Part shown: one piece after another, positions 40,420 to 63,562 of the stretch
How positions within the stretch are numbered: position 1 is the first letter of the stretch
How the letters are laid out: each line of letters opens with the position of its first letter
NCBI GenBank assembly: GCA_052327205.1
Contig: CM126233.1
Location: 3,472,001-3,536,000, forward strand
Direction: 5' to 3'
Source of the DNA: Somniosus microcephalus
Lineage: Eukaryota
Length of the DNA: 64,000 nt
Translations under genes and position numbers: made by a program
Notes under the pieces: generated by a model
The model's database searches: none
What the model was told of the DNA's origin: nothing
Seen by the model: the letters and a program-made list of their open reading frames with translations, nothing else

Positions 40420-41186
40420 CAATAGATTGGGAGAAGGGGAAGTGCAACGTGACCGGGGTGTCCTTGTGCACCAGTCGCTGAAGGTAAGCATGCAGGTGCA
40501 GCAGGCGGTTAAGAAGGCAAATGGTATGTTGGCCTTCATAGCGAGAGGATTCGAGTACAGGAACAAGGATGTCTTGCTGCAGTTGTACAGGGCCTTGGTG
40601 AGACCACATCTTGAGTATTGTGTGCAGTTTTGGTCGCCTTATCTGAGGACAGATGTTCTTGCCATGGAGGGAGTGCAGCGAAGATTCACCAGGCTGATAC
40701 CTGGGATGGCAGGAATGAGGTATGAGAAGAGATTGGGTCGATTGGGCTTATACTCGCTGGAGTTTAGAAGAATGAGAGGGGATCTCATTGAAATGTATAA
40801 AATTCTGACAGTACTGGACAGACTAGATGCAGGAAGGATGTTCCCGATGGCCGGGGAGTGCAGAACCAGGGGTCACAGTCTAAGGATAAGGGGTAAGCCA
40901 TTTAGGACAGAAATGAGGAGGGATTTCTTCACCCAGAGATTAGTGAACCTGTGGAATTCTCTACCACAGAAGGCAGTGGAGGCCAATTCATTAAATATAT
41001 TCAAGAAGGAGTTAGATATATTTCTTAAGGCTAAAGGGATCAAGGGATATGGGGAGAAGGCAGGAACAGGGTACTGAGTTTGGATGATCAGCCATGATCG
41101 CATTGAATGGCGGCGCAGGCTTGAGGGGCCAAATGGCCTGCTCCTGCTCCTATCTTCTATGTTTCTACATTTCTATGTTTCTATGT
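40420..41186 (+). mobile_element. Young 5'-truncated CR1 inserted in an older antisense CR1 (about 40285-41612)
   Basis: Open RT C-terminus ending KGYGEKAGTGY; (TTTCTATG)n tail. Confidence 0.92.
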
Positions 41187-55998: not shown

Positions 55999-56483
55999 AA
56001 TGTGACGATGAAAATCGGGGATGCGCAAGACGCCAGATATGGAGGGATGCATGCATAGTGGAGGGTTGTAGGACTGGATGGTTTTACACAGGTAGGGAGG
56101 GGCGAGGCCGTGGAGGGATTGAATACAAGGATGATTTTCCTTTAAAATCAAGGCGTTGCCGGGCTGGGTTCCAATATAGGTCAGCGAGCAGCTGGGTGAT
56201 GGTTGTTTGGGATTTGGTGCGAGTTAGAATCCGGGCAGCAGAGCTTTTGATGAACTCAAATGTACAATGGGTGAAAGATGTGAGTCTGGACAGGACGTAA
56301 TGGAGAAGTCGAGTCCGGTTGTATCAAAGACATGGCTGGTGGTGACGGGGATGTAAAGTGCTTTAGACATCATTCTGCTACTTGCGAGATAGAATTGGGG
56401 AAACAAGACATTTTTAGACTTTAGAATAATTGCAATTCAAAAGAGGAAACACTCACTATTCAGTTCCCTCCCCTTGTGCTGAC

Positions 56484-57487
56484 AGGGATCAGCGCTGGGG
56501 CCTCAAATATTTATAACCTATATTAATGACTTGGATGAAGGGACCGAGTGTACTGTAGCCAAATTTGCTGACGATTCAAAGATAGGTGGGTTAGCAAGTT
56601 GCGAGGATGCAAAGCGATGTAGATAGTTTAAGTGAGTGGAAAAACATTTGGCAAAAGGAGTATAATGTGAGAAAATGTGAGGTTATCCACTTTGGAAGGA
56701 AGAATGAAAAAGCCAATTATTATTTAAATGGAGTGAGAGTACAGAATGCTGCGGTACAGAGGGATCTGGGGGTCCGAGTACATGAAACACAAAAAGTTAG
56801 CATCCAGGCACAGCAAGTAATTGGGAAGGCTAATGGAATGTTGGCCATTATTGCAAGGGGTATGGAGTATAAAAGTAGGGAGGTTTTGATGCAACTTTAC
56901 AGGGCGCTGGTGAGACCGCACCTGGAGTACTGCGTACAGTTTGGTCTCCATATTTAAGGAAGGATATACTTGCATTGGAGGCAGTGCAGAGAATATTCAT
57001 CAGGTTGATTCCTGGGATGAGGGGGTTGATGTATGATGAAAGGTTGAGCAGGTTGGGTCTATAATCATAGGAGTTTAGAAGAATGAGAGGTGACCTTATT
57101 GAAAGATATAACATTCTGCGGGGGATGGACAGGGTGGATGCTGAGAGGATGATTCCCATAGTGGGGTCATCGAGAACTAGGGGCATAGTTTCAGAATAAG
57201 GGGCCGCCCATTGAAGACGGAGATGAGAAGGAATTTCTTCTCTGAGTGTCGTGAATCTTTGGAATTATCTACGCCAGAGAGCTGTGGAGGCTGAGTCAGT
57301 GAATATATTCAAGGAGTAGATTGGCAGACATTTGAACTACATGGGACTCAAGTGGTATAGGGAGAGACTGGGAAAGTGCTGTTGTGGCCAAGATTGTATC
57401 AGCCATGATATTATTGAATGGTGGAGCAGGCTCGAGGGGCCGATTGGCCTACTCCTGCTCCTGTTTCTTATGTTCTTATGTTCTTAG
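56484..57487 (+). mobile_element. CR1 3' fragment
   Basis: Runs from QGSALGP through KFADD to LVRPHLEYCVQF; (TTCTTATG)n tail. Confidence 0.9.
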
Positions 57488-57710: not shown

Positions 57711-58677
57711 CTGTAAAGGAAAACCAAAAAAATCTTCAACTTCACTGGCTGAATGGAAAACATTTCCTTTGGGACTTCTGGGTCACTCCTTCATTGGGAG
57801 GCGAGATAGCTCAAGAGCAAGAATGGAATACAGGGCTATGCTTATCGGATGGGCTGAATTAAGGTGAGAGAAAGCTTGTGTGGAGCTTATACACAGGCTT
57901 AAACGACATGTGCCGAATGGCTTGCTTCTCTGCTACAAATACATTAAACCAGATTTTGCTGTCATAATTAACGCTGACGTTAATGGTGCTCGCTGTTATC
58001 TGTGTGTAAATGATACTGCAACATCAGGAGAAGGAGAAGGTGCACGGTTAAAATTGAATAGGTAAAATTTGCTGTAATAATGGCCCCTGTCCGCAGTTAG
58101 CTTTGTGAAATCAGCAGCTCTCTGTCTGCCTTGCTATCGGAATGCATCCAATGGTGAGAGCATGCTATTTCTGTGCGATGGATAGAAAGTAAATTCACCG
58201 CAAAAGGTTACATCTGGCCATTTCAAGAATAAGTACCGTTTTAGCGACATATTAAGTGTTAATTTCTAACAACCAACCCCTCCGGCACTGATAATTAAAA
58301 ATTCCACGTGTGGAGTATAATTCATTCAACTATTAATAGTTTTTCCAAATTTTAGAAATTCATCGTTTTATATTTGTACATCTTTATAATTTTCCTTTCT
58401 GTCCGCTTCTCTCTTTCTTAATCTAATAATTCTGGCCCTCTCGTTATATCTACTTATGAACCTGATTTGACATTGAATTCTTCCGCTCTAATCATTTTGA
58501 GCTCTGGGTCTTATTTTCCAATTATTCAGTCTCAATGGTTAAGGTGCTACACTGCTTCTTGCCCTGTCCACTCAGGTACGAAATGCTCTGTTTCTCGCGT
58601 TGTGCCATTATCAGCTCACAGGATTTACAGCTGGACATACAGCAACCAAAACATATTTGACAACAAATAGAATATAT

Positions 58678-58795
58678 TTACTCAGCAAGCAGCAAACAGA
58701 GTCTACTTACTCAGCAAGCAGCAAACAGTGTCTATTTTCTCAGCACACAGCAAACAGAGTCTCTTCACTCAGCAAGCAGCAAACAGAGTCCATTT
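58678..58795 (+). repeat. Minisatellite with ~29-30-bp units (TACTCAGCAAGCAGCAAACAGAGTC..); one more unit follows the CR1 at 63433
   Basis: Four tandem units are visible, and the array resumes directly after the CR1 tail. Confidence 0.85.
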
Positions 58796-59443
58796 ACTAC
58801 AAGAGGCTCCAGAGGCCCAGGTAGGCCCCAGTGCGGCATCGGCAGCGGGTGGAGGCGGAGCTGAGCGGCAGAGCGACTACAAGAGGCTCCAGAGGCCCAG
58901 GTAGGCCTCACCAATCTCCAATCTCAGGGAAGGAGAGAGTTAAAAAGCCATTTAAAAAAACAGCTGAGGCGGAAGTCCAGCTCGTGAGCTTTTTTTCAGA
59001 AGCGGACCTGGTGGGAAGCACCCAGGTGAAAGGTATTTAAGGAGGGTGGTGGCTTAAACCCGAGTTCCTACAGAGTAGGAAACCCCACCCACCCTCCTCC
59101 TCTAACCTAGTAGTCTTTTAGCAGCTGTCTAAAAACAGAGGTCACAAATTTTTTGGTCTCAGTTTCTTTTCAGCAGGGCAGGAACCGGGAGGAGCGGGAA
59201 GTCGGCGTAGGACCAAGGGGACACAAGACCGGGAAGTCAGCGAAAGACCAGGGAGGTAAGACTAACTGGTAAGTACTTTCCTCAAACCTTCCTAGAAAGT
59301 AAAACCAAAACTAGTGGGATTTGGTTAGTTTAAAAAGGAATAAGAGGAGTACAGTATACATTGGTCTAAGTAAGCTTCGGGAAAACAAAAGTCGATAAAT
59401 AAACTAAAACTAGAAAATTAAAAAGTAATATAAGGGTTAAGTC

Positions 59444-60391
59444 ATGGCAGTAGAGCTCGGACCTGTGTCATGCTCCTCCTGTAACATGTGGGAAATCAGG
59501 GACGCTTCCTGTGTCCCTGACGACTATGTGTGCGGGAAGTGTGTCCAGCTGCAGCTCATGTGGGACCGCATGACGGCCCTTGAGCTGCAGATGGACTCAC
59601 TTTGGAGCATCCACGATTCTGAGAGGGGTGTGGATAGCACATTTAGTGAGTTGGTCACACCGCAGGTTAAGGCCAGCGTAGACAGTACATGGGTGACCAA
59701 AAGGCAGAGCAAGGGCAGGAAGGTAGTGCAGAAATCCCCTGGGGTTGTCTCCCTTAGCAACAGGTTCACCGTCTTAGGTACTGTTGTCGGGGGGGGTGAC
59801 GCATCGGGGGAAGGCACCAGCAGCCAGGCTCATGGCACCATGACTGGCTCTGTTGCAAAGAAGGGAGGGAAAAAGAGTGGCAGGGCTATAGTAATAGGGG
59901 ATTCGATTGTAAGGGGAATAGATAGGGGTTTCTGTGGTCGCGACCGAGACTCCAGGATGGTATGTTGCCTCCCTGGTGCAAGGGTCAAGGATGTCTCGGC
60001 GCGGGTACAGAACATTCTGGAGGGGGAGGGGGAACAGCCAGTTGTCGTGATACATGTTGGTACCAACGACGTAGCTAAAAAAAGGGAAGAGGTCCTACAA
60101 GTAGAATTTAGGGAGTTAGGAGCCAAGCTAAAAAGTAGGACCTCGAAGGTAGTAATCTCTGGATTACTACCAGTGCCACGTGCTAGTAAGAGTACAGAGA
60201 ACAGGATAGTTAGGCTAAATACGTGGCTTGAGCAGTGGTGTAAGAGGGAGGGTTTTAAATTTTTGAGGCATTGGAACCAGTTTTGTGGTAGGTGTGACCT
60301 ATACAAAAGGGACGGTCTACACCTGTGCAGAGATGGAACTGATGTTCTCGGGGTAATTTTTGATAAAGCAGTTCGGGAGCATTTAAACTAG
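59444..60391 (+). CDS. CR1 ORF1p: CxxC..CxxC zinc finger/leucine zipper and SGNH esterase domain
   Basis: CSSC..CGKC; IGDS, PGA, HVGTND, DGLHL motifs. Confidence 0.92.
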   Translation: MAVELGPVSCSSCNMWEIRDASCVPDDYVCGKCVQLQLMWDRMTALELQMDSLWSIHDSERGVDSTFSELVTPQVKASVDSTWVTKRQSKGRKVVQKSPGVVSLSNRFTVLGTVVGGGDASGEGTSSQAHGTMTGSVAKKGGKKSGRAIVIGDSIVRGIDRGFCGRDRDSRMVCCLPGARVKDVSARVQNILEGEGEQPVVVIHVGTNDVAKKREEVLQVEFRELGAKLKSRTSKVVISGLLPVPRASKSTENRIVRLNTWLEQWCKREGFKFLRHWNQFCGRCDLYKRDGLHLCRDGTDVLGVIFDKAVREHLN

Positions 60392-63333
60392 TATGGCAGG
60401 GGGCTAGAAACCTATGTAGTGAAATAGAGGAAAGTGAAAGGCAGACAGAAATAAATGGTAAAAGGGTGAGGAACAAAAAACAAAGGGCCAAACTAATTCA
60501 TAAAAAATGTGAGCATAAAAAAAGCCTGAGGGTTTTATACCTTAATGCGAGAAGCATCAGGAACAAGGTAGATGAATTAGCTGTGGAAATAGAGGTTAAT
60601 AATTATGATCTAATTGGGATTACGGAAACATGGTTGCAGGGTGAGCAGGGCTGGGAGCTTAACATACAGGGGTATTCAGTATTTAGGAAGGATCGACAAA
60701 AAAGAAAGGGAGGAGGGGTAGCATTGCTAGTAAAAGAGGGGATAAATGCAATTGAAAGGAAGGATATTAACTCAGTTAATACAGAATCTATATGGGTGGA
60801 GCTAAGAAATAGCGAGGGGCGAAAAACATTAATAGGAGTGGTATATAGGCCTCCAAATAGTAAAATAGAGGTTAGGGAGGGCATCACGAGGGAAATTAGA
60901 GAAGCGTGCAATAAGAGCACAGCTGTCATCATAGGTGACTTTAACTTACATATAGATTGGACTAGCCTAATCAGTAAAAATAATGAGGAGGAGGAATTCC
61001 TTGAGTGTTTAAGGGATGGTTATCTGGATCAATATGTCGAGGAACCAACTCGGGAACAGGCTATATTGGACTGGGTACTGTGCAATGAGAAGGGACTAAT
61101 CAGTAATCTTGTTGTACGGGGACCCTTGGGTCAGAGCGATCATAACATGATCGATTTCTCACTCGAAATGGAGAGCGAAGAAATTGACTCAGAGACTAAG
61201 GTCCTGAATTTAAACAAGGGGAATTATGATGCCATGAGACGGGAACTGAGTAGGTCTGATTGGACAACGTTCCTGAGAGGACTGGAGGTAGATAAACAAT
61301 GGCAAACATTTAAAGATAGAATGACAAAATTGCAAAAATTGTTTATACCAATCTGGCATAAAAGGAAATCTAAAAAGGTGACTCAACCGTGGATAACAGG
61401 GGAAATTAGAGACAGCATAAAATCCAAAGATAGGGCGTATAAAATAGCCAAAAAAAGCGCCAGAGCGGAAGATTGGGAACAGTTTAAGATAGAGCAAAGG
61501 AGGGCAAAGGGCATGATCAAGAGGGGCAAAATAGCTTACGAAAACAAGCTGGCGGAAAATATAAAAACTAACTCCAAAAGCTTTTATAAATATATCAAAA
61601 GGAAAAGACTGGTGAAAACCAAAGTTGGTCCATTGCAGTCAGATACGGGGGAATATATAATGGGAAATAAGGAAATGGCAGATCAACTAAATGCATACTT
61701 TGGGTCAGTCTTTACGAAGGAAGACACAAAAAACCTCCCTGGGATATCGGGAAAAATAGGGACATTGGCAAAGGAGGAACTGACGCAAATCAATATCTCT
61801 AAGGATATGGTGTTAAGGAAGCTAAAGGGATTGAAGGTGGACAAATCCCCAGGGCCTGATAACATGCATCCTAGGGTACTGAAGGAGGTGGCCCTAGAGA
61901 TAGCGGATGCACTAAGGATGATTTTTCAGAATTCATTAGACTCGGGAACAGTGCCGATGGATTGGAGGGTAGCTAACGTTACCCCACTATTCAAAAAGGG
62001 GGGTAGGGAAAAAGCAGGTAATTACAGACCTGTAAGCCTTACATCAGTTGTGGGCAAAATGCTGGAGTCCATCATTAAGGATGAAATAGCGGAGCACTTA
62101 GCAAATGGGGACAGGATAGGACAGAGTCAACATGGATTTACAAAGGGTAAATCGTGCTTGACTAATCTATTGGAATTTTTTGAGGGAGTAACTGGTAGAA
62201 TAGATGGGGGAGAGCCAGTAGATGTGGTGTACCTGGACTTCCAAAAGGCCTTCGATAAGGTCCCACATAAAAGATTAGCATGGAAAATTGAGGCTCATGG
62301 GATAAAGGGGAAAGTTTTGGCGTGGATAGGGAACTGGCTGTCAGATAGAAAACAGAGAGTTGGAATAAACGGCTCATTTTCTGAATGGCAGGCAGTAACA
62401 AGTGGGGTACCACAGGGATCTGTCCTGGGCCCCCAGCTGTTCACAATTTACATTAATGACCTGGATCAGGGAGTCGGATGCAGCATTTCCAAATTTGCAG
62501 ACGACACTAAACTAGGAGGTGGGGTGGGCTCAGAGGAAGAGACCAGGAAGCTCCAGAGCGATTTGGACAGACTGGGCGATTGGGCGGATAAATGGCAGAT
62601 GCACTATAATGTGGACAAGTGCGAAGTTATCCACCTTGGGTGCAGGAACGGGAGGGCAAATTATTATTTAAATGGCAATAGATTGGGAGAGGGGGAAGTA
62701 CAGAGAGACCTGGGTGTTCTTGTACACCAGTCACTGAAGGCGAGCATGCAGGTGCAACAGGCGGTCAAGAAGGCAAACGGTATGCTGGCCTTCATAGCAA
62801 AAGGGTTAGAATACAGGAACAGGGATACCTTGCTGCAGCTGTACAGGGCACTGGTGAGACCACACCTCGAGTACTGTGTACAGTTTTGGTCGCCTCATCT
62901 GAGGAAGGATGTTCTTGCCATGGAGGGGGTGCAGCGGCGATTCACCAGGCTGATACCAGGAATGGCGGGAATGACCTATGAGGAGAGACTATGTAGTTTA
63001 GGGATGTACACACTGGAGTTTAGAAGATTGAGAGGGGACCTCATAGAAGTGTATAAAATTCTGACAGGTCTAGACAGACTGGATGCAGAAGGAATGTTTC
63101 CCTTGGCGGGTGAGAACAGAACTAGAGGACATAATTTAAGGATAAGGGCTAAACCATTTAGGACAGAGATGAGGGGGAATTTCTTCACTCAGAGAGTGGT
63201 GAACCTGTGGAACTCATTGCCACAGAGGGCAGTGTACGCCAGCTCATTAAATATATTTAAGAGGGAATTAGATATATTTCTACGGGCAAAAGGGGTTAAG
63301 GGTTACGGAGAGAAGGCGGGGACGGGATACTGA
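60367..63333 (+). CDS. CR1 ORF2p: APE endonuclease and reverse transcriptase (frame open from 60367, no ATG before the endonuclease)
   Basis: YLNARS, ITETW, GGGV, GDFN, SDH; KSPGPD, NYRPVSLTS, YLDFQKAFD, PQGSVLGP, FADD. Confidence 0.95.
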   Translation, partial: SSSGAFKLVWQGARNLCSEIEESERQTEINGKRVRNKKQRAKLIHKKCEHKKSLRVLYLNARSIRNKVDELAVEIEVNNYDLIGITETWLQGEQGWELNIQGYSVFRKDRQKRKGGGVALLVKEGINAIERKDINSVNTESIWVELRNSEGRKTLIGVVYRPPNSKIEVREGITREIREACNKSTAVIIGDFNLHIDWTSLISKNNEEEEFLECLRDGYLDQYVEEPTREQAILDWVLCNEKGLISNLVVRGPLGQSDHNMIDFSLEMESEEIDSETKVLNLNKGNYDAMRRELSRSDWTTFLRGLEVDKQWQTFKDRMTKLQKLFIPIWHKRKSKKVTQPWITGEIRDSIKSKDRAYKIAKKSARAEDWEQFKIEQRRAKGMIKRGKIAYENKLAENIKTNSKSFYKYIKRKRLVKTKVGPLQSDTGEYIMGNKEMADQLNAYFGSVFTKEDTKNLPGISGKIGTLAKEELTQINISKDMVLRKLKGLKVDKSPGPDNMHPRVLKEVALEIADALRMIFQNSLDSGTVPMDWRVANVTPLFKKGGREKAGNYRPVSLTSVVGKMLESIIKDEIAEHLANGDRIGQSQHGFTKGKSCLTNLLEFFEGVTGRIDGGEPVDVVYLDFQKAFDKVPHKRLAWKIEAHGIKGKVLAWIGNWLSDRKQRVGINGSFSEWQAVTSGVPQGSVLGPQLFTIYINDLDQGVGCSISKFADDTKLGGGVGSEEETRKLQSDLDRLGDWADKWQMHYNVDKCEVIHLGCRNGRANYYLNGNRLGEGEVQRDLGVLVHQSLKASMQVQQAVKKANGMLAFIAKGLEYRNRDTLLQLYRALVRPHLEYCVQFWSPHLRKDVLAMEGVQRRFTRLIPGMAGMTYEERLCSLGMYTLEFRRLRGDLIEVYKILTGLDRLDAEGMFPLAGENRTRGHNLRIRAKPFRTEMRGNFFTQRVVNLWNSLPQRAVYASSLNIFKRELDIFLRAKGVKGYGEKAGTGY

Positions 63334-63562
63334 ATTAAAGGATCAGCCATGATCTCATTAAATGGCGGAGCAGGCACGAAGGGCCGAATGGCCTACTCCT
63401 GCTCCTATCTTCTATGTATCTATGTATCTATGTACTCAGCAAGCTGCAAACAAAATCCATTAAACTAAGTCTCTACGAACTACCGAAAATAGTAAACAGA
63501 TCTCATGATCGAAACTACAGCAATGCAACCCAATAAAAGTGGCTGGATGTTAGTTACATAAT

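What the first reader, a model, noticed from the sequence alone, without database searches (positions are those of the whole stretch)
60367..60430. CR1 ORF1-ORF2 junction carries a coronavirus-type UUUAAAC -1 frameshift site
Seen in sequence: ORF1 ends CAT TTA AAC TAG (60380-60391), so T_TTA_AAC (60382-60388) sits in the X_XXY_YYZ register. The -1 frame is the ORF2 frame, open from 60367 (..FKLVWQGARNL..). Its first ATG comes only after the endonuclease SDH motif (near 61148). The ATG at 60393 is in the third frame and closes after MAGG. A G-rich tract with weak hairpin potential (ggcagggggctagaaacctatgt) follows a spacer of about 6 nt. Established: UUUAAC-type heptamers (U_UUA_AAC) drive -1 frameshifting in coronaviruses, whereas L1 and SART1 ORF2 are made by reinitiation or coupling. 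Inference: this LINE may make a gag-pol-like ORF1-ORF2 fusion of about 1,300 aa (esterase-EN-RT).
Basis: partly seen in the sequence, partly recalled or inferred. Interest (0 to 1): 0.72.

Follow-up and report, generated by a model that had tools for sequence, protein, structure and literature searches.

The report
Conserved frameshift site in CR1 retrotransposons
In a major family of vertebrate jumping genes (CR1 LINEs) the end of the first gene carries a virus-style slippery sequence that is kept from sharks to birds, which suggests that ribosomes slip back one base there to make the element's reverse transcriptase as a fusion protein, a route not established for this class of element.

Summary
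An intact cartilaginous-fish CR1 LINE (58796-63434) has U_UUA_AAC at 60382-60388 in register before the ORF1 stop. ORF2 is in the -1 frame and has no AUG until after the endonuclease. One copy alone proves little, but the site is conserved. It is present in 8 of 8 intact junctions (window plus seven bird-like loci found through the ORF1 protein), where 0 of 27 upstream third codon positions are invariant. It also shows at 17 junctions in a published consensus library, from chimaera to crocodile. Among distant ORF1 proteins the last residues are LN (58 of 150), GN (10) or KN (3), and the preceding residue fits U_UUA_AAC, G_GGA_AAC or A_AAA_AAC respectively (protein only). Instead, a run of five G's starts 10 nt after the heptamer in 6 of 7 junctions. 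Best reading (0.75): -1 programmed frameshifting gives a 1,296-aa esterase-EN-RT fusion. Main rival: stop-coupled reinitiation. No frameshift product was shown. Ten literature searches found no report; older CR1 papers could not be read.

The parts
58796..63434 (+). Near full-length CR1 LINE with both ORFs intact, inserted in or beside a 29-bp tandem array (58664-58798; one more unit-like copy follows 63434)
   Evidence: The 5' end is inferred from the 80-bp repeated unit and from likeness, judged by eye, to the 5' end of SquAca_CR1-7
58796..59443 (+). 5' UTR beginning with two 80-bp-spaced units
   Evidence: 35-nt copies, spacing 80, 97% alike; reads with 'goes back 80' joints
59444..60391 (+). 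ORF1, 315 aa: N-terminal Cys cluster, SGNH/GDSL esterase with GDS, GTND and DGLH motifs, ends in Leu-Asn-stop
   Evidence: Pfam PF13472 E 5e-11; profile matches PDB 4C1B ORF1-encoded protein, E 7e-39; alignment A1
60382..60388 (+). Slippery heptamer U_UUA_AAC in the ORF1 register
   Evidence: invariant in 8 of 8 junctions
60389..60391 (+). ORF1 stop (TAG) directly after the heptamer; TAG or TAA in relatives
60399..60403 (+). Run of five G's starting 10 nt after the heptamer; candidate stimulator of unknown kind
   Evidence: spacer of 10 in 6 of 7 junctions long enough to score, 9 with a six-G run in the seventh
60367..63333 (+). ORF2 frame (-1): 52-codon linker from the heptamer, APE endonuclease (about 60544-61143), reverse transcriptase (about 62002-62634); first in-frame ATG at 61147
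63367..63405 (+). 3' UTR hairpin typical of CR1
   Evidence: fold of -23.2 kcal/mol; a similar hairpin sequence in four other CR1 3' ends of the window
63411..63434 (+). Tail of three 8-bp repeats, no poly(A)

Best explanation
CR1 LINEs with an esterase ORF1 make their endonuclease and reverse transcriptase by -1 programmed ribosomal frameshifting. Most ribosomes end ORF1 at the stop after U_UUA_AAC. A minority slip back one base on the heptamer (tandem tRNA slippage, perhaps helped by slow termination at the adjacent stop) and continue in the ORF2 frame, giving a Gag-Pol-like esterase-linker-EN-RT protein of 1,296 aa in this copy. SHOWN: anatomy, register, nucleotide-level conservation, an open -1 linker, no AUG before the endonuclease in this family. 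INFERRED: that slippage occurs, and that the fusion is the working enzyme, carried into the particle by its ORF1 part. The stimulator is not a predicted hairpin or pseudoknot; the best candidate is the G run at a fixed 10-nt spacing, most simply a protein-binding site as in PRRSV (inference, about 0.4 given frameshifting).
For: (1) Loci were found through the ORF1 protein, not the motif. Of 14 examined (of 27), 8 reach the junction and all 8 carry TTTAAAC; 7 are followed by TAG and one damaged copy by AAG. Five end before the junction and one has it deleted. ORF1 identity to the window is only 29-35%. (2) In 7 alignable sequences, 0 of 27 upstream third positions are invariant, against 3 of 3 inside the heptamer. 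Background use in these ORF1s is TTA 10 of 83 Leu codons, AAC 11 of 25 Asn codons, and third-position T 130 of 411, about 0.017 per sequence jointly. (3) The -1 frame has 0 stops from heptamer to endonuclease in 6 of 6 elements, over linkers of 37-88 codons, against 3-10 stops in each other frame. It is closed by a stop 1-5 codons upstream of the heptamer in 6 of 8, so entry is confined to the heptamer region. (4) 40 of the 43 closest ORF1 homologs that keep the DGxH motif end in LN. Two of the three exceptions are database models that read on into the -1 frame, and one is truncated. Named LN-ending ORF1s come from sharks, rays, alligator, lizards, a snake, turtles and sturgeon. (5) In a published consensus library, 17 of 20 TTTAAAC-TAR hits are ORF1/ORF2 junctions by eye (labels AllMis, CroPor, AquCat, LatCha, AmiCal, AldAff, CalMil, HypSab, PriPec, ScyCan, SquAca). 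When rows were picked by upstream codons instead, 7 of 8 showed the motif and the eighth was cut off. (6) Among 150 representatives at 50% clustering, 58 end LN, 10 GN and 3 KN, the dipeptides that X_XXA_AAC encodes. The residue before LN can end in U in 57 of 58 (background 17% cannot; P 2.5e-4). The residue before GN is Q in 9 of 10 and can end in G in 10 of 10 (Fisher P 2e-9 against the LN group; representatives are related, so the P values are optimistic). (7) U_UUA_AAC, G_GGA_AAC and A_AAA_AAC are named among the most shift-prone heptamers for mammalian ribosomes (PMC5009743, passage). (8) The stop varies between TAG and TAA, which argues against a splice acceptor, and no joint is listed near the junction in two RNA runs.
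Against: No trans-frame product, ribosome profile or reporter was available. No 3' structure exceeds chance: local fold z between -1.5 and -0.07 in 7 of 7; pseudoknot scores reached by 10-100% of shuffles; no Rfam match. An in-frame ATG lies two bases after the stop in 4 of 8 DNA junctions (L001, L002, L003, L008), and a UAAUG stop-start overlap is in frame in ScyCan_CR1-1a. The G run is at 10 nt in only about 6 of the 17 library rows by eye; others show a G run at 6-13 nt or none, in consensuses that contain evident deletions. 22 of 78 representatives whose ORF1 ends 20-34 residues after DGxH end in something other than LN, GN, KN or SN, and L2-type esterase ORF1s lack LN. The GN and KN classes rest on protein only; no DNA was obtained. 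Seven of the eight DNA junctions are bird-like and not independent.
Confidence: 0.75

Rival explanations
1. ORF2 is made as a separate protein by termination-reinitiation at or near the ORF1 stop (as SART1 with UAAUG, or L1 independent of AUG). The conserved junction is then a reinitiation signal that happens to resemble a slippery site.
For: In-frame ATG next to the stop in 4 of 8 DNA junctions and UAAUG in ScyCan_CR1-1a. SART1 stop-start coupling is described in PMC3894237 (part 2 read), and AUG-independent L1 ORF2 initiation in PMC5009743 (passage). No structural stimulator was found.
Against: The AUG is not conserved. It is absent in frame in the window, L005, L007, L012, PriPec_CR1-7 and the AllMis rows. 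In the window the nearest AUG is out of frame and would divert reinitiating ribosomes into 4 codons. Reinitiation does not explain why the seven bases before the stop form X_XXY_YYZ in register, nor the LN/GN/KN pattern with matching preceding residues.
Confidence: 0.15
2. ORF2 starts at an internal non-AUG codon (such as GTG 60466) or from a spliced or shorter RNA, and LN-stop is kept for protein reasons.
For: In-frame near-cognate codons exist before the endonuclease (ATA 60424, ATA 60451, GTG 60466, ATT 60496, CTG 60526). One search showed only 40 of 860 variant places and left 19 rows of its joints tables unshown.
Against: Protein constraint would allow any Leu or Asn codon, yet TTA and AAC are invariant. 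L2-type esterases, including the solved 4C1B type, end without LN, so the fold does not need it. The linker is open all the way back to the heptamer despite a 2.4-fold range in length. TAG/TAA variation breaks a splice acceptor.
Confidence: 0.05
3. Frameshifting is real and its stimulator is long-range pairing of the G run with the pyrimidine-rich 3' arm of the 3' UTR hairpin, 3 kb away. This would be a switch between translation and reverse transcription (a sub-case of the best explanation; confidence is conditional on frameshifting).
For: In the window the duplex (-14.1 kcal/mol) is in the best 1% of 225 internal windows. The shark junction prefers shark 3' ends (about -14 against -7 to -11). 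Bird junctions L007 and L012 pair well with two unlinked bird 3' ends (-13 to -18).
Against: Shuffled targets do as well in 13% of trials for the window. The two bird elements with their own 3' ends pair weakly (L001 matched by 11% of internal windows, L008 by 64%). In cofolding, the junction does not displace the hairpin in 3 of 3 own pairs. No shared partner position beats the shifted null (P 0.28).
Confidence: 0.12

Closest known systems
[quoted passage not shown]
   Same: The same heptamer class in register at the end of a Gag-like ORF1, overlapping a polymerase ORF in the -1 frame; a minority fusion product is predicted (PMC5009743 passages).
   Different: The host element is a non-LTR LINE with no protease domain found by Pfam. 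No pseudoknot or stem-loop stimulator was found. The ORF1 stop follows the heptamer directly.
PRRSV nsp2 frameshift, trans-activated by nsp1beta with poly(C)-binding protein
   Same: An unstructured 3' motif at a fixed distance from the shift site (CCCANCUCC 11 nt 3', PMC5009743 passage; here five G's after a 10-nt spacer).
   Different: The motif is G-rich, not C-rich; no binding protein is identified; the analogy is inference.
SART1 (UAAUG stop-start coupling) and mammalian L1 (AUG-independent ORF2 initiation)
   Same: Bicistronic APE-type LINE RNA with low ORF2 output; some CR1 subfamilies have an AUG at the stop.
   Different: Those make a separate ORF2 protein. Here the AUG is not conserved, while a slippery heptamer is.
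Drosophila HeT-A gag frameshift
   Same: A non-LTR element said to need frameshifting (PMC5009743 passage).
   Different: That shift lies within a gag-only element; it is not an ORF1-ORF2 fusion.
Canonical vertebrate CR1 with esterase ORF1 (PMC13343379; ZfL2-1 esterase structure PMC3905857, PDB 4C1B)
   Same: Esterase ORF1, APE-RT ORF2, 3' hairpin and 8-bp tail repeats.
   Different: Term searches in these two main texts found no 'frameshift'; they treat ORF1 and ORF2 as separate products.

Membership tests
Vertebrate CR1 LINE | ORF2 with APE endonuclease followed by reverse transcriptase | tested here: met
   PF03372, PF14529 and PF00078
Vertebrate CR1 LINE | Esterase-type ORF1 | tested here: met
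   PF13472; 4C1B, E 7e-39; esterase is the only ORF1 type recovered in CR1 and L2 in PMC13343379 (passage)
Vertebrate CR1 LINE | 3' hairpin plus short tandem repeats, no poly(A) | tested here: met
   feature described in PMC8665684 (passage)
Vertebrate CR1 LINE | RT groups with CR1 rather than L2 | tested here: inconclusive
   No tree was built. ORF2 is 40% identical to bird (Grus) models and 26% to a teleost L2-like model; the ORF1 end closely matches ScyCan_CR1-1a by eye
-1 programmed ribosomal frameshift site | X_XXY_YYZ heptamer in the zero-frame register | tested here: met
-1 programmed ribosomal frameshift site | Downstream ORF in the -1 frame, open from the heptamer | tested here: met
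   0 stops in 6 of 6 linkers
-1 programmed ribosomal frameshift site | Conservation beyond protein constraint | tested here: met
Classical (coronavirus or retrovirus type) -1 signal | Pseudoknot or stable stem-loop 5-9 nt 3' of the heptamer | tested here: not met
   nothing above shuffled controls
G-quadruplex-stimulated frameshift | Four G tracts just 3' of the site | tested here: not met
   A two-tier pattern was found in 4 of 7 junctions and not in the window copy
-1 programmed ribosomal frameshift site | Trans-frame product or measured frameshifting | not testable with these tools
   No ribosome profiling, proteomics or reporter data were available
Protein-trans-activated frameshift (PRRSV type) | A protein binds the 3' motif and is needed for shifting | not testable with these tools
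   Only the fixed spacing was observed

The most novel reading that the evidence does not exclude
Esterase-bearing CR1 LINEs as a whole clade use retrovirus-like Gag/Gag-Pol logic. A -1 frameshift site has been kept across jawed vertebrates and has switched between the three most efficient heptamers (U_UUA_AAC, G_GGA_AAC, A_AAA_AAC) in different lineages. It is stimulated not by RNA structure but by a protein (a host G-run binder or ORF1p itself) that binds a G run 10 nt downstream, which would give a genome-resident element regulated or autoregulated control of its reverse transcriptase.
Probability: 0.3. Interest if true: 0.9.

Novelty: new variant of a known kind. Interest (0 to 1): 0.8.

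Why it matters
How LINE ORF2 is translated is called an open question in a review I read (PMC3894237). The two worked cases, L1 and SART1, make a separate ORF2 protein. CR1 is the most abundant repeat of the chicken genome (11.8%, PMC11835228 passage) and is abundant in reptiles (abstract of PMC4316615). A conserved -1 signal gives a short, directly testable answer for this clade. It changes the predicted enzyme to an esterase-EN-RT fusion and explains why CR1 ORF2 often has no usable AUG. It also bears on how intact CR1s are annotated and how CR1 retrotransposition assays should be built. A -1 site without a structured stimulator would be of separate interest to the recoding field.

Tried and rejected
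No genome is held for the window, so copies of this family could not be counted. Local hairpin, H-type pseudoknot, Rfam families (one chance miRNA hit, E 0.24) and a G-quadruplex in the window copy: not supported. Long-range pairing with the 3' UTR was tested three times and was weak or unsupported. Pattern and protein scans of viral and prokaryote contigs: no relative; three hits without LINE similarity; five hits with bacterial record titles, not examined further; L036 has no LINE similarity. Plasmid and phage collections: no match. The search for natural in-frame fusions among longer proteins returned 6 proteins, all database gene models; P0155, like P0035, reads ORF1 into ORF2, but these may be indel copies or model corrections and are not evidence of recoding. 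ORF2 homolog N-termini were uninformative because gene callers choose the start. A read-through lead for L2-type elements found nothing usable, and one search returned no rows. Supplements of PMC4316615 (file 1 not searchable; hits only inside ORF2) and PMC11303007 (0 hits) gave no junctions. The Atlas look-up gave only generic GDSL clusters. Metagenome records could not be extended. No structure or complex prediction was run.
Full report
WHAT IS THERE. Window 58796-63434 is a near full-length CR1 LINE with two intact ORFs. ORF1 (59444-60391) is an SGNH esterase protein whose closest named homologs are from sharks and rays, so the host is most likely a cartilaginous fish (inference). ORF2 carries an APE endonuclease and a reverse transcriptase. 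The 3' end has the CR1 hairpin and three 8-bp repeats. The family looks young: in one public run, contigs match several stretches with 0-1 differences, including 59971-60426 across the junction at depth 656, and 17 runs hold half or more of the sampled words.

OBSERVATION. The first in-frame ATG of ORF2 is 61147, after the endonuclease domain, so ordinary initiation cannot give a working enzyme in this copy. Taken alone the heptamer is common (16 copies on the + strand). The suggested hairpin is not real.

CONSERVATION IN DNA. An ORF1 alignment retrieved 27 metagenome loci. I printed the 14 whose match reached residue 262 or beyond. Eight include the ORF1 end, and all eight have TTTAAAC in register (seven with TAG, one damaged copy with AAG); five stop short and one has the region deleted. 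The three with long ORF2s that were compared are 54-61% identical to a Grus japonensis model, so I call them bird-like (inference). With the window this gives 8 of 8 intact junctions reading TTTAAACTAG. Across 7 sequences alignable without gaps (L001 left out because of an indel), none of 27 upstream third positions is invariant, while all three in the heptamer are, although the residue before Leu-Asn varies (H, S, C, A). The -1 frame is free of stops from the heptamer to the endonuclease in 6 of 6 elements with linkers of 37-88 codons, and is closed 1-5 codons upstream in 6 of 8.

WIDER RANGE. The consensus library of PMC13343379 is held with only the first 400 letters of each entry, so no true denominator exists. 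Of 20 TTTAAAC-TAG/TAA hits, 17 are junctions by eye and 3 lie in UTRs. Two of three TGA hits were shown, and neither is a junction. I read the labels as alligator, crocodile, frog, coelacanth, bowfin, a teleost, chimaera, rays and sharks; the expansion of the abbreviations is recalled. One more row (ScyCan_CR1-13) has the heptamer without the adjacent stop, probably a consensus deletion. At protein level, 41 of 120 homologs end in LN: 40 of the 43 close ones that keep the DGxH motif, plus an alligator protein; none of the other 58 more distant, mostly teleost L2-like proteins does. Named LN-ending clusters include lizards, a snake, turtles and sturgeon.

HEPTAMER SWITCHING. A profile search of 50%-identity representatives gave 150 proteins, of which 58 end LN, 10 GN, 3 KN and 0 PN, against internal dipeptide frequencies of 0.2-0.4%. 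These are the endings encoded by X_XXA_AAC. The preceding residue behaves as the XXX rule predicts: able to end in U in 57 of 58 LN proteins; Q (9) or S (1), all able to end in G, before GN; S or G before KN. This reads as exchange between U_UUA_AAC, G_GGA_AAC and A_AAA_AAC, three of the four heptamers named as most shift-prone in PMC5009743. It is inferred from protein alone. The eight GN proteins looked up carry no organism names, and no DNA was found for them. The other 79 of 150 are truncated, run on, or end differently.

STIMULATOR. No hairpin, pseudoknot or Rfam structure beats controls. What is conserved is a run of five G's after a 10-nt spacer (6 of 7; 9 nt with six G's in L002), and about 6 of 17 library rows show the same by eye. 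The -1-frame codons that form it end in G in these junctions (CAG, AAG, AGG or CCG, then GGG), which suggests selection on the RNA. Most relatives have a second G run, which the window copy lacks, so a quadruplex is not required. Long-range pairing to the 3' hairpin was my own first idea and was retested after an earlier scan note on another LINE; it is attractive for the window but fails for L008 and is not significant against shuffled targets. The fixed spacing recalls the PRRSV motif bound by nsp1beta and PCBP, so a bound protein is my preferred guess.

RNA. Two RNA runs cover the junction bin (depth about 137 and 220). No joint is listed between 58908 and 61908; only 40 of 860 variant places were shown, none at the junction, and 19 rows of the joints tables were not shown. 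Reads come from both strands and many subfamilies, so they do not show autonomous expression.

MECHANISM AND RIVALS. Tandem slippage on U_UUA_AAC puts CUA in the A site and yields a 1,296-aa fusion; confidence 0.75. Reinitiation at the stop (0.15) is favoured by an in-frame AUG in 4 of 8 junctions and by UAAUG in one catshark consensus, but the AUG is absent or out of frame elsewhere, including here. Both routes could coexist in some subfamilies. Internal non-AUG initiation or splicing gets 0.05. Domains in front of the endonuclease are tolerated in this group (PHD before EN in P0133; PMC4120745 passages), so a fusion is structurally plausible (inference).

PRIOR ART. Ten full-text searches found no paper on CR1 frameshifting. 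Seen: PMC5009743 (passages; first 300,000 of 449,034 characters held; CR1 occurs 0 times there); PMC3894237 (parts 1-2 of 3); PMC13343379 (passages, supplement searches, supplement part 43); PMC3905857, PMC4120745, PMC2734521, PMC8665684, PMC11835228 (passages); PMC2881922 (reference lines only); PMC4316615 and PMC11303007 (supplement searches only). Kajikawa 1997 and Kapitonov and Jurka 2003 are not held, and the Haas papers were not read. I recall, unverified, that the 1997 turtle CR1 paper described overlapping ORFs, so an early suggestion of frameshifting cannot be excluded. The library lacks most subscription journals and Repbase notes, and bioRxiv supplements are closed.

VERDICT. A real and deeply conserved recoding-like signal, most likely -1 frameshifting. 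It works like a viral gag-pol shift but fails the classical structured-stimulator feature. New variant of a known kind; interest 0.8.

Noticed in passing
P0062-P0120 (teleost L2-like esterase ORF1s), P0110: These ORF1s end without LN. One model reads past the usual end through a Trp followed by Leu-Thr, which might mark an in-frame TGA read-through junction in that clade; no DNA was found to test it.
   Followed up: partly
P0252, P0235, P0270, P0205: Other ORF1 endings (KDF, FFR, FFH) could encode further slippery words such as G_GAU_UUU or U-runs; protein only.
   Followed up: no
window 58664-58798 and just after 63434: The element sits at the end of a 29-bp tandem array, with one more unit-like copy after its tail; no clear target-site duplication.
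   Followed up: partly
window 11732-11166 (- strand): A second, decayed CR1 ORF1 fragment (66% identical, residues 1-188) breaks off before the junction.
   Followed up: partly
window 40421-41178, 35682-34934, 56483-57481, 7353-6739, 29774-29618: At least five 5'-truncated CR1 copies of other subfamilies, plus more distant LINE fragments near 19.3-19.9, 28.2-29.0, 37.1-37.9 and 41.3-41.6 kb.
   Followed up: no
L002, L007, L008, L012, about 20-45 nt after the heptamer: Bird-like junctions share a possible small hairpin further downstream, absent in the window; folding z-scores were not significant.
   Followed up: partly
P0008: A shark-type CR1 ORF1 is filed in a public database under Pseudomonas aeruginosa, probably contamination.
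   Followed up: no
PMC13343379 supplement, row AldAff_Crack-2: This entry is labelled Crack but carries an esterase-type ORF1 end with the CR1 junction motif.
   Followed up: no
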